A stretch of DNA of 64,000 bases from Leucoraja ocellata (lineage: Eukaryota), in the NCBI GenBank assembly GCA_036785375.1, contig JAWMAR010000006.1, forward strand, positions 7,254,001 through 7,318,000. The letters are read 5' to 3'. This document shows, piece by piece, positions 41,501-47,500 of this stretch. Every line of letters begins with the position of its first letter. The stretch's first letter is position 1. Position numbers: made by a program.

Positions 41501-44500
41501 TGCATGGAAACACGTAGAATAAGCTGCCATTAGGGATACCTGAGACATAGTTGGGTAATCTCACGAGGGGAAAAAGTACTAGAAAGATATATTTAAATAG
41601 AGGCTCTTGTAGGACATAAACATGACACAGATCAGTTGTACTAAATGGCATTGTAAACTTTGAGACAATATGTTGAACATCAGATAATATGTTTATGTGA
41701 TTTAAATTGTCAATGACAAAGTTGGATGATAATGCCGAGATCCTCGACTGTATCCAGTCCATTTCCAGCATTTGGCCTTCTCCTAGTCTCAGAACTAGGA
41801 TGGGATTCCTTTTGTCCTTCCCATCCATTCCACGAGTCTTCACGTTCATTGGATTATCATCTTCTCCAACATGTTCCTCCTCTTTCCGTTTCATCATTCC
41901 AGGACAGTCTGTTGTTCGATCCATACCTTCTCTTTCCCACAACTGGTGCTACATCACCTGTGCCTGCACCTCTTCCATGCTCACCCTCCAAAGTCTTAAA
42001 CATGCAGAAGATGTGAACCAGTTATGTCCTTGTTCTTCGTTCAATATTCACTGCTTAATCTTATCCTATTTTATTTAATTAAGGGTATCTAAATTGTGCA
42101 CTGTACTCCAGGCTTCACCTGTCTAGTTGTACTAATATTTTCCTATTTCTATACTCCGATCCCCTTGTAAAGAGAAACAAATAGACATTTGTTTTCCCAA
42201 TTATTTGTATACTTGCCAGTGAACATTGTGTAAGTCATACAGAACACCTAGATTTGTTTGTATTCCATTCATTTATTCTCTCTGTCGTATGGAGAGTGTA
42301 CTTGGGTTTCATGAAGATTCATGATATTGAAAATTTTGGAATATAGACAATAGGTGCAGGAGTAGGTCATTTGGCCCTTTGAGTCAGCACCGCCATTCAT
42401 TGTAATCATGGCTGATCATCCACAATCAGTACCCCGTTCCTGCCATCCCCATATCCCTTAATTCTACTCTCTTTAAGAGCTCTATCTAAGCAAAGAACAA
42501 TCTGCTGGAGGAACTAGGCGAGTCTATCAGAATTGATGGGGAGGGGGAGTAATGACCAATATTTCAGGTAGAGATCCTGCATCAGGATTGAGAGTGGAAA
42601 GGAAAGATAGCCAGTACAAAGAGAAGGGGGGTGAAGAGTGAGATAGGGGCCAGTAGATGGACTAAGGAGGGGTGAAGGACAACAGGCAAATGAGGCTAGA
42701 TGGTGGGAGGAGCATAAGTGGAATTGGGAGACCGAGACATTCTCATTCCTAATGCAGGGTCTCAACCTGAAACATCCGTGATATCTTTGCCTCCACAGAC
42801 GCTGTTTGATCTGCTGTGTTCTTCCAAAACTAATTTCTTGACCTCGGCCTCTTTTGCATCAATGCAGAGGAAAATTAATTCAAGGGGTTGTGATTTCTTC
42901 CTTGACCACAGTGACCACTGTGACATTTCGCTAATGGACAAAAAAGTCCCCAGGCAACCAGGCTAGCTCCGGGATACCATGTTGATTCATACTGTTAACC
43001 CCACCTAGTTTCAGTTGCTTCTCATTCTCACCCAACTCTGATTTGAAAGCTTGTGGTAAATCCATACTCAACTCTCTGACAAACAACTTATGACAGAGGT
43101 CAAAGAGAACTTTTTGACTCTTAACCTAACCTTATGTTTTCCAAAGTGTATTGATACATGCTCATTCTGCTCAGCAATATAATTCTACTGAATTTTGTGC
43201 TTTGACATTTTAAAGATCCCAAGCACATCCAGACAAAATCCACTTTTGCAATGCACCACTTCTTCGAGCTTAACACTTGAACGGAACTGTGATATTGACA
43301 CCAGTTTATTTCTTCTTTTTTAGCTGGGGCACAACATGGGGTGACCTTGGTTACTTGAAACTGGCGAAGGACAGGGGCAATCATTGTGGAATTATCAATT
43401 ATATTGTCTATCCACGCGAGGAAGAGCACCTGTAACCAACCAGACCTTCCAAACACGGCCTGAAAAAATTTGGAAAGTTCTCCGCTGTTGCTTATTAATT
43501 TCTATACCGTTGCTTTAACTGTCTGCGGCAAATGCATACACATGTTCAAGAGAATAAAAGTCGTTTCTATATATTCTGCAGTGTGACATTAAGGGCAAAC
43601 TAATCAAACATTACTTAATGACAATGTTATTCAACCTGTGTCGAGGCAATGGGTTGCAACATTGAACAATTAATAAAAGCTACTGGCAATCATTTCAACT
43701 GTATCATCATTTCAAGCTTAATGATCAATTTTGCCTTTCACTTTCCATCAATGACCTGGTTTAATTAAAAGCTGAATGTCCTATAATTACTAACAAATAA
43801 CAAGGTGCATTAAATATAAGTCTGCACCTTTTTCTAAACTTTGATTCCTTAAATTCCTTTCTAACATTTTTACTGAATCAGCTTCCACCACACTTCCAGA
43901 CATCATTATATAATGTTCCTCATGCTACCCTTGGCTTAGCCAATCAAACTTCTAAACTCTAATGTATACACAGAATTGCTGTTGATATTATCAGTCAAAC
44001 ATGAACAGTGGAAAATGCTAGCCATTTGTCCAGTAGAAAGTGCCATTTGCACTAAAATAATGGGCTGTAGATTTATCGGGTGGAAGATGATTCTATTCAT
44101 GATCCAAACTATTTGCAGCATCAACTGCAGTGGCATCCACCTTTTTTACATAGTTTCAGTCCAGCTAGTATTTCAGAGTATTGACAGTGAACTTGGCAGT
44201 GAACCTCTGTGCCCGTTATGATCTAGGAACTATCTAAATTCTAAGGAGATTTACCTGATTTCATCCCCAAAGTAATATCATTACACTTAATACATAACAT
44301 AATTAAATAAATCATTCCTAGAAGAAAATTATTTAAAAAATATCCAGACTGGATATATATCCAGCTATATAAATCACTGTTCCATCGTCACCATCAAAAT
44401 CCTGGAACATCCCACCTAACAACATGGGAGTACATTCAATGGAAATCTAACAGATTCAAAAGCATATCCCAACCCCACCATCGAGAACTATGAGGAAGAA

Positions 44501-47500
44501 ATGTCAATTGATAATTAAACAATTGTACCACAACTAAAATTGATTTCAACAAATGTTTTGTTTAATTATCTTCAAAGTTTATATTTTCATTTATTTTAAA
44601 ATAATGTTTTTTCCTCATTTAAGTGTCTGGTCTTACTTGTCTTGCAAGACTTGTTTTACCTGTTGTCCTCCACCATGGGGCGCCTATGAGGTGACTGCAG
44701 GTTGTGAGGTTTGTGAGGTTTTACAGTTTTAATCCAGATTTACTATGGAAGCTGAAGAATTTAGGTGCTACGTAATTATGGGGTGGATGCAACTTTAACA
44801 AAATAAGGGAGAAAAGCTAAAATATACTCTACCAAGTAACAATTTATCAAAGATTTTATTCCCTGTTTTTAGATACTAACTTCAATGGTATCTTCATTGT
44901 TCAAAGTTTAGTCAAAACTCTTCCTGTAACCATGAGATTTGCAATCAATTTTGCACTAAATGACTGCTAGGCACCAATACTAACCCCTCTCTCTCTCTGC
45001 TGAATTGTCAGCTCTTGGTAAAGAATAAATAGGCTCTTATTTGATGTGGTTCATGCCGAAATAAATCACAGCTAAGTTTTACACCTTTAATTAATAGTCC
45101 GGGATCTATCTCAGAAATCCACATGTGGATGTCACACAAAACTAAGATTTGCATGGACCCAAAAAGTTATTCTTGTCCAGATGTTAGGTGGCAGTCCAGC
45201 AAACATTTGGATTGGATTGGAATTGCCACCTATCCTCAGGATAAGTGAGAGAAGGAGAGCAGAATCCCCTTAAAGCCTTGTTTAACATTCAACAAGATTA
45301 TGGCTAAACGTAATTTTGCCCAATTCGTATCGATTTCTTCTGATTTCAAGAGTCAAGAGTCAAGAGTCAATTTAATTTCAAATATCTGCCATCCCAGCCT
45401 TGAATGTATTCAATGGCGGAGTATAAACGTCACATTGTACAGAGAAATATTTCCTGAAATTATCACAGTCTACCCTCTCCTCATTCTCATCCACTTCACC
45501 TCCCTGTACTTTTCCACCGGTCCCTCCTTCTCCTCACCTGCCTGCTTGCCACTCCCCTCTCATCAGCCCAACTCTCCTCACCTGTTGCACTCAGTTGCCT
45601 CTGATCACCAATTAACCCGGTGTATAGACTCTCCTCACCGTGCACACAGTGCCAGATTGTTCTCAGCATTCATGCAAGACTCTCCAGCGATTTCCCGACT
45701 GCCTACACGGATTCGAACCTGCCTGCCCCTGACCATTCTTTCCCGGATAGCAACTCAGCCTTCTGTCCCCGACCATGGCCTTCGTCCCGTACCTCCTGGT
45801 TTCTGTCTGCCTCTCTCCTGGGCTGTTTGGTGTATCCCTGCAACGGCTCCTCGACTTCCTGCCTGGTTTCGACTTTCCCAGTTTCAAAGATTTAAACATT
45901 TAAATGGAGGTCATGTGAGAGGGCTGCATCAACCACAACAGAGGAGATGCCATATTCTTGAAAATTGAGGTCATTTCAGATGTCCTGGAATAAGGAGGGA
46001 GGGGGCTCATCTTGAGATCAGAATCGACAATGAAAGAAATGGGAGAAAGGAATTGCACTCCAAGCGATCCTCCTTTTTTAAGGATCTCCTTAGGAATTTG
46101 AAACAACCCTTCCTGGTGAGACAGAGATTCACATGCACCTCCTCCAACCAGGTCGATTGCAGTGAATTTGCATAAAGTTCTCTCCTCAACATCAATGAGA
46201 TCAGGTGTCCACTAGGTCACAGTTTTCAGGGCACCTGCATTATTTCTGCAGTGATTATCCTGAACATTCATCGGCATACCACTTCATGCAAGGATGCTCC
46301 TGCAACTTCCTCTCTTGCCTCTCTCAATAACCTGGAATAGATCCCATTAGGCCCTGGGACATTATCCATCTTAATGTTCTTCAAGAGCCCCGACACCTCC
46401 TGCTTCTTAATCTCAAACTGCCCTTCCATATCAGTATTCTCCACACAGATTTCACTATCGTCCATGTCCTTCTCCTTGGTGAAAACAGATGCAGGGTACT
46501 TGTTTTGTACCTCGCCCTCAACTCCAGACTCCAAGCACAAATTCCCACCTTTACCATTGAGCAGTCGTACATTCTTCCTGGTTACCCTCATGTTTTTAAT
46601 GTAGGCATAAAGAAATGTGGGGATTTTTCATAATGCGATTTGGCAATGTCATTTCATGGCCCCTTATGGCCTTTCTATACCCCCTCTAGGGTATTGACAT
46701 GAATAGAGAATTAGTTGGCAGACAGGAAGCAAAGACTAGGAATTAACGGTTCATTTTCAGAATGGCACGCAGTGACTAGTAGGATGCTGGAGGGTCAGTG
46801 TTGGGCCCCCAGTTATTTACAATATATATTAAAGATTTAGATGAGGGAATTAAATGTAACATCTCCAAGTTTGCGGATGACACAAAGCTGGGTGGCAGGG
46901 TGAGCTGCGAAGGGGATGCTATGAGGCTGCAGGGTGACTTGGATAGGTTGGGTGAATGGGCAGACGCAGTATAATGTGGATAAATATGAGGTTATCCACC
47001 GTGGTGGTAAAAACAAAAGATTATTATCTTAATGGTGTAGGAAGGAACTGCAGATGCTGGTTTAAACCGAAGATAGACACAAAAAACTGGAGAAAACCAG
47101 CAGTCAGATTAGGAGAAGGGGAGATGCAACAAGACCTGGGTGATCTTGTACATCAGTCATGGAAAGTAAGCATGCACGTACAGCAAGCAGTGAAGAAAGC
47201 AAATTGAATGTTGGCCTTCATAGCGAGAGGATTTAAGTATAGGAGCAAGAATGTCCTACAGCAGTTGTACAGGGCCCTGTTGAGACCACACTTGGAGTAT
47301 TGTGTGCAGTTTTGGTCTCCTAATTTGAGTAAGGCCATTCTTGCTATTGAGGGAGTGCGGCGTAGGTTCACCAGGTTAGTTCCCGGGATGGCGGGACTGA
47401 CTTATGATGAAAGAATGGGTCGACTGGGCTAGTATTCACCGGGATTTGGAAGGATGAGAGGGCATCTTCTTGAAACATTTTAAATTCTTAAGGGATTAGA

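What the first reader, a model, noticed from the sequence alone, without database searches (positions are those of the whole stretch)
43911..44915. Inverted, decayed DPP9 exon copy just downstream of the cathepsin poly(A) sites
Seen: about 1 kb of DPP9 (3300-4325, a whole coding exon plus both intron flanks) recurs 40 kb away in opposite orientation, roughly 70-80% identical by eye and frame-broken, starting about 230 bp after the second AATAAA. Intron sequence is included, so this was a DNA-level duplication. Inference: it is the scar of an old inverted duplication at this locus, probably older than the cathepsin tandem duplication. Read-through cathepsin transcripts would be antisense to DPP9 RNA. 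Established: DPP9 restrains NLRP1/CARD8 inflammasomes in mammals, so an inducible protease gene carrying a DPP9-antisense tail would be a new regulatory link. That link is speculative.
Basis: partly seen in the sequence, partly recalled or inferred. Interest (0 to 1): 0.7.

Follow-up and report, generated by a model that had tools for sequence, protein, structure and literature searches.

The report
Old inverted DPP9 gene-fragment relic
About 1 kb of the DPP9 gene (one exon with intron on both sides) was copied long ago, upside down, into the spacer behind a neighbouring cathepsin L-like gene of a skate, and it looks like a decayed, inert scar rather than a regulator.

Summary
Window 3303-4323 (+) aligns to 44914-43912 (inverted) at 73.9% over 1059 columns, E 2.5e-179; a global alignment gives 749 identical of 1053 columns, K2P 0.275, with sharp ends. 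It covers 127 nt of intron, the 146-nt DPP9 coding exon 3430-3575 and 748 nt of the next intron. The copied exon (44793-44660, minus strand) has three frameshifting indels and stops in all three frames. No other DPP9 exon is copied. The copy starts 235 nt after the second AATAAA of a plus-strand cathepsin L-like gene. Named protein matches indicate a skate, not human. The copy carries a skate-only residue, so it arose within the skate lineage. It is roughly ten times more diverged than the 97% cathepsin tandem duplication. No RNA family, protein domain, terminal repeat or poly(A) tail was found. Best reading: an inert unprocessed pseudogene fragment from a DNA-level inverted duplication. The antisense-to-DPP9 idea is geometrically possible but has no evidence and could not be tested here. 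Interest is low.

The parts
3303..4323 (+). Parent segment inside the DPP9 gene: 127 nt of intron, one coding exon and 748 nt of the next intron
   Evidence: blastn; MAFFT alignment
3430..3575 (+). DPP9 coding exon (146 nt, AG/GT bounded). It encodes residues matching 623-671 of whale shark DPP9.
   Evidence: sequence; PDB DPP9 1.2e-19, DPP8 1.4e-19; best named hit is Rhincodon typus DPP9, 88%; tblastn 86% over 51 aa
43912..44914 (-). Inverted, decayed copy of 3303-4323 (1003 nt)
   Evidence: 749 of 1053 columns identical, 17 indels of 1-13 nt, sharp ends
44660..44793 (-). Pseudo-exon (134 nt). It has +5, -4 and -13 nt indels relative to the parent and stops in all three frames. GT is kept after it, and an AG is kept before it with a 1-nt shift.
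   Evidence: tblastn remnants 44783-44724 (13 of 20 aa) and 44715-44671 (7 of 15 aa), E 0.009
32210..43435 (+). Cathepsin L-like gene. Seven coding exons at about 32210-32338, 32959-33081, 35177-35353, 36395-36610, 39607-39768, 41280-41384 and 43322-43435; stop TAA at 43433-43435.
   Evidence: 90.9-97.3% per exon to Leucoraja erinacea procathepsin L-like P0086 where it covers
43553..43677 (+). The two AATAAA hexamers after the cathepsin stop codon (43553-43558 and 43672-43677)
   Evidence: Their use as poly(A) signals is inferred, not shown.
18760..32458 (+). Seen part of tandem unit 1, matched by 54188-64000 (unit 2) at 97.1-97.3%. The fragment copy lies further along in unit 1.
   Evidence: second cathepsin exon 1 at 63744-63890

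Best explanation
This is an inert, unprocessed pseudogene fragment. A 1,021-bp piece of genomic DNA from inside DPP9 (end of one intron, one coding exon, start of the next intron) was copied at the DNA level. It was inserted in reverse orientation 39.6 kb downstream, in the spacer 476 nt past the stop codon of a cathepsin L-like gene. This happened within the skate lineage, long before the present 97% tandem duplication of the cathepsin unit. Since then the copy has decayed without constraint, through substitutions, small indels, frameshifts and stops. It has no function of its own. Shown: the homology, its extent, orientation, sharp ends and broken frame; that no other DPP9 exon is copied; relative age; shared derived residues. 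Inferred: neutrality and the mechanism of origin. That mechanism could be a short templated insertion or template switch during repair or replication, or the remnant of a once larger inverted duplication trimmed by deletions. The sequence cannot tell these apart.
For: The homology is real and limited to about 1 kb. One colinear HSP was found among 6 when 1-12500 was searched against 39000-52000 at permissive settings; the rest were transposon copies or 38-43 nt matches. Intron sequence on both sides is copied at the same level as the exon: 92 of 120, 102 of 129 and 555 of 722 ungapped columns identical. The coding capacity is destroyed: three frameshifting indels, stops in all three frames, and 15 of 85 first and second codon positions changed against 12 of 42 third positions and 195 of 842 intron positions. 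tblastn with whale shark DPP9 finds the six 3' DPP9 exons on the + strand and only this one exon on the - strand. No Rfam family reaches the gathering score in the window, and nothing scores at E<=1 in the copy. There is no Pfam match among 6 ORFs of the two copies at E<0.1. No terminal inverted repeats, target-site duplication or A-tail lie at the ends. The uneven identity along the alignment tracks base composition (Spearman 0.60, P 0.006) and is marginal once the AT-rich stretch 3553-3702 is dropped (P 0.037). Age: K2P 0.275 against about 2.7-2.9% difference between the tandem units. The copy shares Ala7 (GCA in both), which is Pro in 15 of 15 other DPP9s compared. It also shares the batoid states His14 and His35. 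At positions 9 and 37 its codons (AAA, CGC) are one step from the outgroup codons for Glu and His, not from the parent's present Asp and Tyr.
Against: Neutrality is inferred from one pair of sequences without an outgroup. Three exact runs of 32, 26 and 24 nt are more than a uniform model gives: 0.5% of 20,000 shuffles reach a 32-nt run and 0.3% reach three runs of 20 nt or more. Residual heterogeneity remains at P 0.037, so patchy constraint or old gene conversion is not excluded. Transcription across the copy could not be examined. The dating rests on a handful of codons and on parsimony. No skate DPP9 other than the window's own was among the 15 cluster members listed of 80.
Confidence: 0.86

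Rival explanations
1. Functional antisense source. Cathepsin L-like transcripts that read through their poly(A) sites carry the inverted fragment. They pair with DPP9 pre-mRNA or mRNA and lower or modify DPP9 expression through dsRNA, endo-siRNA, editing or splice masking.
For: The geometry is right, since both genes are on the + strand and the copy is inverted. Exact complementarity runs of 32 nt (intron), 26 nt (exon) and 24 nt (intron) exist. The predicted duplex of the DPP9 exon with the + strand RNA of the pseudo-exon is -161 kcal/mol, against -62 +/- 5.5 for 200 shuffles and -295 for a perfect antisense; this follows from the similarity alone. Pseudogene-derived antisense small RNAs acting on parent genes are documented elsewhere (PMC2708354, abstract and passages read). 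A cis antisense lncRNA of human DPP9 exists (PMC9512191, passages read).
Against: There is no evidence of transcription. Overall identity is only 71-77%, with 17 indels. The exon-complementary part is the distal end of the copy, about 980 nt past the second AATAAA and behind five more AATAAA/ATTAAA hexamers at 43764, 43809, 44302, 44306 and 44514. The decay pattern is compatible with neutrality. No known RNA family matches.
Confidence: 0.04
2. Same inert relic but a different origin. The fragment was moved by a mobile element (LINE 3' transduction, a template-switch chimera, or capture by a DNA transposon), or is a retrocopy of unspliced DPP9 pre-mRNA, rather than a plain DNA duplication.
For: The locus is full of LINE fragments: reverse transcriptase and endonuclease at 47963-53004 (-) and reverse transcriptase at 19173-20735 (-). 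A DUF4371 transposase-like ORF sits at 1-492 (-) in the DPP9 intron upstream of the parent segment. Twenty-seven percent divergence could have erased short target-site duplications.
Against: No terminal inverted repeats or target-site duplication lie at the ends among the repeats listed. The best candidate is a 16-nt, 88% pair with one arm 68 nt outside the copy, among 43 similar chance-level pairs. No A-rich tail follows the sense 3' end. The sequence adjoining the copy (44915-46270) has no match upstream of 3303, as 3' transduction would need, and no Pfam domain. Only one copy is present in the window.
Confidence: 0.08
3. Chance similarity or assembly artefact.
For: None found.
Against: E 2.5e-179 within the window. 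Identity of 74-77% with many indels is not what a collapsed or duplicated assembly error gives. The copy is embedded in unique flanks with sharp junctions.
Confidence: 0.005

Closest known systems
Unprocessed (duplicated) pseudogene fragments, i.e. gene relics left by segmental duplication
   Same: Keeps intron sequence. Partial (one exon). Lies near the parent on the same chromosome. Reading frame destroyed. No poly(A) tail.
   Different: Very short (1 kb), inverted and isolated, with no other part of DPP9 alongside it. It sits inside a younger tandemly duplicated cathepsin unit.
Short inverted templated insertions or template-switch duplications (FoSTeS/MMBIR-type events; recalled from general knowledge, no call)
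   Same: Small size, inverted orientation, a source tens of kb away on the same chromosome, and sharp junctions.
   Different: The junction microhomology that defines such events cannot be assessed after about 27% divergence, so this is only a plausible mechanism.
Pseudogene-derived antisense RNAs or endo-siRNAs acting on the parent gene (rice: PMC2708354, abstract and passages read; mouse oocytes as cited there)
   Same: An inverted pseudogene piece whose transcript would be complementary to the parent RNA. Exact runs of 24-32 nt exist.
   Different: No transcription or small RNAs are shown here. Identity is far lower than in typical siRNA-producing pairs. It would depend on read-through from a neighbouring gene.
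Human DPP9-AS1, a cis natural antisense lncRNA overlapping DPP9 (PMC9512191, passages read)
   Same: An RNA antisense to DPP9.
   Different: DPP9-AS1 is transcribed from the opposite strand of the DPP9 locus itself. Here the complementarity would come from a diverged copy 40 kb away, acting in trans. No homology between the two was tested.

Membership tests
Unprocessed (duplicated) pseudogene fragment | Significant nucleotide similarity to a parent gene that extends into its introns | tested here: met
   Intron flanks identical at 92 of 120 and 555 of 722 ungapped columns; exon at 102 of 129; E 2.5e-179
Unprocessed (duplicated) pseudogene fragment | Coding capacity disabled | tested here: met
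   +5, -4 and -13 nt indels in the exon; stops in all three frames
Unprocessed (duplicated) pseudogene fragment | Parent gene intact and conserved | tested here: met
   For the part in the window: the six 3' exons are open and 75-100% identical to whale shark DPP9. The exon is conserved in 15 of 15 named vertebrate DPP9s aligned. Upstream exons lie outside the window.
Processed pseudogene / retrocopy | Lacks introns, ends in a poly(A) tail and is flanked by target-site duplications | tested here: not met
   Introns present on both sides of the exon; no A-tail at the sense 3' end; no flanking direct repeat
Transposon-captured or transduced gene fragment | Terminal repeats or an adjoining element whose flank is colinear with the source; usually several copies | tested here: not met
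   No terminal inverted repeats or target-site duplication. Flanks do not match the source flanks. Single copy in the window. Decay could hide short signals, and the rest of the genome was not available.
Natural antisense / pseudogene-derived small-RNA locus | Sequence complementarity to the parent transcript | tested here: met
   Exact runs of 32, 26 and 24 nt; duplex -161 against -62 +/- 5.5 kcal/mol for shuffles
Natural antisense / pseudogene-derived small-RNA locus | Transcription of the antisense strand, and small RNAs or an effect on the parent gene | not testable with these tools
   No transcriptome or small-RNA data are reachable.
Known structured RNA gene (Rfam) | Match to a curated covariance model at its gathering score | tested here: not met
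   0 matches in the whole window. At E<=1 there are two sub-threshold hits in the parent (28.4 of 70 bits and 13.7 of 65 bits) and none in the copy.

The most novel reading that the evidence does not exclude
The inverted DPP9 fragment is retained as the tail of read-through transcripts of the cathepsin L-like gene. In tissues where that protease is strongly expressed, it forms imperfect dsRNA with DPP9 pre-mRNA or mRNA, including 24-32 nt perfect stretches. This trims DPP9 dosage through small RNAs, editing or splice interference, giving a lineage-specific coupling of a lysosomal protease to a DPP9-controlled pathway in skates.
Probability: 0.03. Interest if true: 0.55.

Novelty: new member of a known kind. 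Interest (0 to 1): 0.13.

Why it matters
As it stands it matters little. It is one more decayed gene fragment of the sort that local rearrangements leave in vertebrate genomes. It is useful mainly as an annotation warning, because it is a DPP9-like pseudo-exon with a retained GT and a nearby AG that gene predictors could pick up. It is also a rearrangement marker for dating events at the DPP9-cathepsin locus in skates: it should be present in relatives that split after the event and absent in rays. Only if read-through antisense transcription and an effect on DPP9 were shown would it become an interesting case of a pseudogene-fragment regulator.

Tried and rejected
(1) Looked for a larger duplication. 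Permissive blastn of 1-12500 against 39000-52000 gave 6 HSPs, and only the known one was colinear. The inverted match 8981-9852 to 47612-46691 is a multi-copy LINE family and is not colinear with the fragment.

(2) Looked for other copied DPP9 exons by tblastn with whale shark DPP9. None was found.

(3) Known RNA families. None in the window at gathering score, and only two far sub-threshold hits in the parent at E<=1.

(4) A hidden gene in the duplicated intron. Six ORFs of 60-93 aa gave nothing in Pfam at E<0.1. Indel lengths in the intron part are not multiples of three.

(5) Transposon hallmarks at the ends. No terminal inverted repeats, target-site duplication or A-tail. The ORFs next to the copy have no domain.

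(6) Constrained blocks or gene conversion, suggested by long exact runs. This is mostly explained by composition: AT-rich segments are the most diverged. It is kept only as a minor caveat.

(7) Duplex energy. It is strong but follows from the similarity, so it is not used as evidence of function.

(8) Literature. 'DPP9' with 'skate' gave 0 papers. 'DPP9' with 'pseudogene' and 'segmental duplication' gave 0 papers. 'DPP9' with 'antisense transcript' gave 11 papers, and none of the 10 listed is about anything like this by its title and abstract start. One 5-term search with min_terms 2 was uninformative, since no listed paper held DPP9.

(9) Not done. No structure prediction, complex prediction, atlas or representative search, because none bears on a non-coding relic.
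Full report
**What the window is**

Named protein matches place it in a cartilaginous fish, most likely a skate, and not in human.
- The DPP9 exon at 3432-3575 is closest to whale shark DPP9 (88%) and Chiloscyllium (85%).
- The 75-aa cathepsin exon is 99% identical to 'procathepsin L-like [Leucoraja erinacea]' and 85-86% to Amblyraja radiata cathepsin L1-like proteins.

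Spliced models were searched exon by exon. The step of joining exons into one coding sequence and searching with it was left out. Exon maps were made instead by aligning named reference proteins to the window.

The window also holds one run of 200 N downstream of the DPP9 stop codon. It was left as it is.

**Gene map**

DPP9 lies on the + strand. Its last six coding exons are at 3430-3575, about 5064-5213, 6959-7114, about 10880-11026, about 11754-11867 and 12083-12175. They are 75-100% identical to whale shark DPP9 residues 623-886. This exon alone does not tell DPP9 from DPP8 (72.3 against 72.1 bits in PDB). The other five exons and the named hits do.

A cathepsin L-like gene, also on the + strand, has seven coding exons between 32210 and 43435, with stop TAA at 43433-43435. 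AATAAA hexamers follow at 43553 and 43672.

The cathepsin region is tandemly duplicated. 18760-22247 matches 54188-57673 at 97.1%, and 26140-32458 matches 57669-64000 at 97.3%. A second cathepsin exon 1 lies at 63744-63890.

- 3303-4323 aligns to 44914-43912 on the opposite strand at 73.9% over 1059 columns, E 2.5e-179.
- A global alignment gives 749 identical, 222 mismatched and 82 gapped columns of 1053, which is 77.1% without gaps and K2P 0.275, with 17 indels of 1-13 nt.
- Just outside both ends identity drops to 34% and 44%, so the junctions are sharp.
- The segment holds 127 nt of intron, the whole 146-nt exon and 748 nt of the next intron.
- The three parts are about equally similar: 76.7%, 79.1% and 76.9% of ungapped columns.
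- The copy starts 235 nt after the second AATAAA and 476 nt after the cathepsin stop codon.

**The copy is dead as coding sequence**

The pseudo-exon (44793-44660, minus strand, 134 nt) has a 5-nt insertion and 4-nt and 13-nt deletions. It has 4, 1 and 3 stop codons in its three frames. First and second codon positions differ at 15 of 85 sites, third positions at 12 of 42, and introns at 195 of 842. That is what free decay of the copy beside a constrained parent would give, within the wide error of so few sites. A GT after the pseudo-exon and an AG before it (shifted by one base) survive, which matters only for gene predictors.

**Extent and origin**

- No other DPP9 exon is copied anywhere in the window.
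- A permissive search of 1-12500 against 39000-52000 found no further colinear homology. Of 6 HSPs, one is the fragment, two are transposon copies and three are 38-43 nt.
- The ends carry no terminal inverted repeats, no target-site duplication and no A-tail.
- The sequence beside the copy has no match beside the parent, which speaks against LINE 3' transduction.
- Neighbouring ORFs have no Pfam domain, while real LINE and transposase-like ORFs lie further away.

A DNA-level inverted duplication is therefore the simplest origin. It cannot be decided whether it was a 1-kb templated insertion or template switch, or the trimmed remnant of a larger inverted duplication.

**Age**

K2P of 0.275 compares with about 2.7-2.9% difference between the tandem cathepsin units.

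The window's exon, the copy and 15 named DPP9 proteins were compared: 4 rays, 8 sharks, a chimaera, coelacanth and bichir.
- The copy shares Ala7 with the parent, with the same GCA codon. All 15 others have Pro there.
- It also shares the ray-type His14 and His35.
- At positions 9 and 37 the copy's codons (AAA, CGC) are one step from the outgroup Glu and His codons, but two steps from the parent's present Asp (GAT) and Tyr (TAC).

By parsimony the copy arose after skates split from the sampled rays. It arose before two, perhaps three, amino-acid changes in the skate DPP9 exon. This rests on few sites and is an inference.

If the fragment predates the tandem duplication, unit 2 should hold its own copy about 31.5 kb further on. 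That is beyond the window end and stayed unchecked.

**Search for hidden function**

- Rfam gave no match at gathering score in the whole window, two far sub-threshold hits in the parent and none in the copy.
- Six ORFs of 60-93 aa in the two copies gave no Pfam match at E<0.1.
- Identity is uneven along the alignment. Exact runs of 32, 26 and 24 nt occur, and only 0.5% of 20,000 shuffles reach 32.
- The unevenness follows base composition (Spearman 0.60, P 0.006) and is marginal (P 0.037) once the AT-rich stretch 3553-3702 is removed.

I take the unevenness as rate variation. Patchy constraint or old gene conversion remains a small caveat.

**The antisense idea**

The geometry holds: both genes are on the + strand, so a + strand read-through RNA would contain DPP9-antisense sequence. 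The predicted duplex with the DPP9 exon is strong, at -161 kcal/mol against -62 +/- 5.5 for shuffles and -295 for a perfect antisense. That is a restatement of the similarity, not evidence of use.

Against it:
- There is no transcription evidence.
- Identity is 71-77% with many indels.
- The exon-complementary part is at the far end of the copy (44660-44793), about 980 nt beyond the second AATAAA and behind five more AATAAA/ATTAAA hexamers at 43764, 43809, 44302, 44306 and 44514.

Precedents exist for the kind. Pseudogene-derived antisense small RNAs are described in PMC2708354 (abstract and passages read). A cis antisense lncRNA of human DPP9, DPP9-AS1, is described in PMC9512191 (passages read). 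The statement that DPP8/9 inhibition activates NLRP1-type inflammasomes in mammals was seen only as titles in the reference list of PMC7118104; otherwise it is general knowledge. Whether skates have that pathway was not examined. That the cathepsin gene is 'inducible' has no support here.

**In print**

- 'DPP9' with 'skate': 0 papers.
- 'DPP9' with 'pseudogene' and 'segmental duplication': 0 papers.
- 'DPP9' with 'antisense transcript': 11 papers, none of the 10 listed relevant by title and abstract start.

**What stayed unchecked**

So none of these could be tested: presence in tandem unit 2, presence in the rest of this genome or in related species, and any transcription.

**Verdict**

The finding is real and accurately described. 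It is best explained as an old, inert, inverted unprocessed pseudogene fragment of DPP9 in a skate, a new member of a very common kind. The regulatory reading is possible only in geometry. I give it about 3-4%.

Noticed in passing
18760-32458 and 54188-64000: Tandem duplication of the cathepsin L-like unit at 97.1-97.3% identity, with a period of about 35.4 kb. Homology starts within 2 nt of the end of a LINE copy. The same LINE family also occurs at 8741-10211 inside a DPP9 intron (91.7-91.8%), which suggests the duplication junction lies at a repeat.
   Followed up: partly
22248-26139: A 3.9-kb segment present in unit 1 but absent from unit 2. It begins and ends with 212-nt direct repeats (22248-22459 and 25928-26139, 95.3%), and the two unit-2 alignments overlap by 5 nt at the empty site. 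It looks like an LTR-type insertion made after the tandem duplication.
   Followed up: no
47963-53004 (-): A long LINE with reverse transcriptase (PF00078, 1.4e-30) and endonuclease (PF03372, 9.5e-13) ORFs. Within its span, between the two ORFs (50732-51693), lies a GC-rich stretch that is its own reverse complement at 77% over about 1 kb.
   Followed up: partly
1-1102 (-): Transposase-like ORFs (DUF4371, 4.7e-10) inside the DPP9 intron upstream of the copied exon. This is probably a hAT-type element or a relative.
   Followed up: partly
41271-41396 (+): Reading cathepsin exon 6 on into its intron gives '...LIKNRYVP*'. That is exactly the C-terminus of one Amblyraja radiata 'cathepsin L1-like' model (P0096), so that model is probably a truncated read-through prediction or an alternative 3' end.
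   Followed up: no
13586-14433; 38331-38732: Long low-complexity tracts: a purine-rich GGA/GAG-type region after the DPP9 3' end, and a CAG/GCA repeat (a run of Gln or Ala in translation) inside a cathepsin intron.
   Followed up: no
3450-3452 and 44773-44771: The window's DPP9 has Ala where 15 of 15 other vertebrate DPP9s compared have Pro (the VPP motif of the exon). The pseudo-exon carries the same GCA codon.
   Followed up: yes
4631-4685; 30986-31033; 36699-36746; 37048-37091; 62529-62582: A short interspersed repeat of about 45-55 nt (87-91% identical) just downstream of the parent segment and in both cathepsin units. It is not part of the duplication.
   Followed up: no
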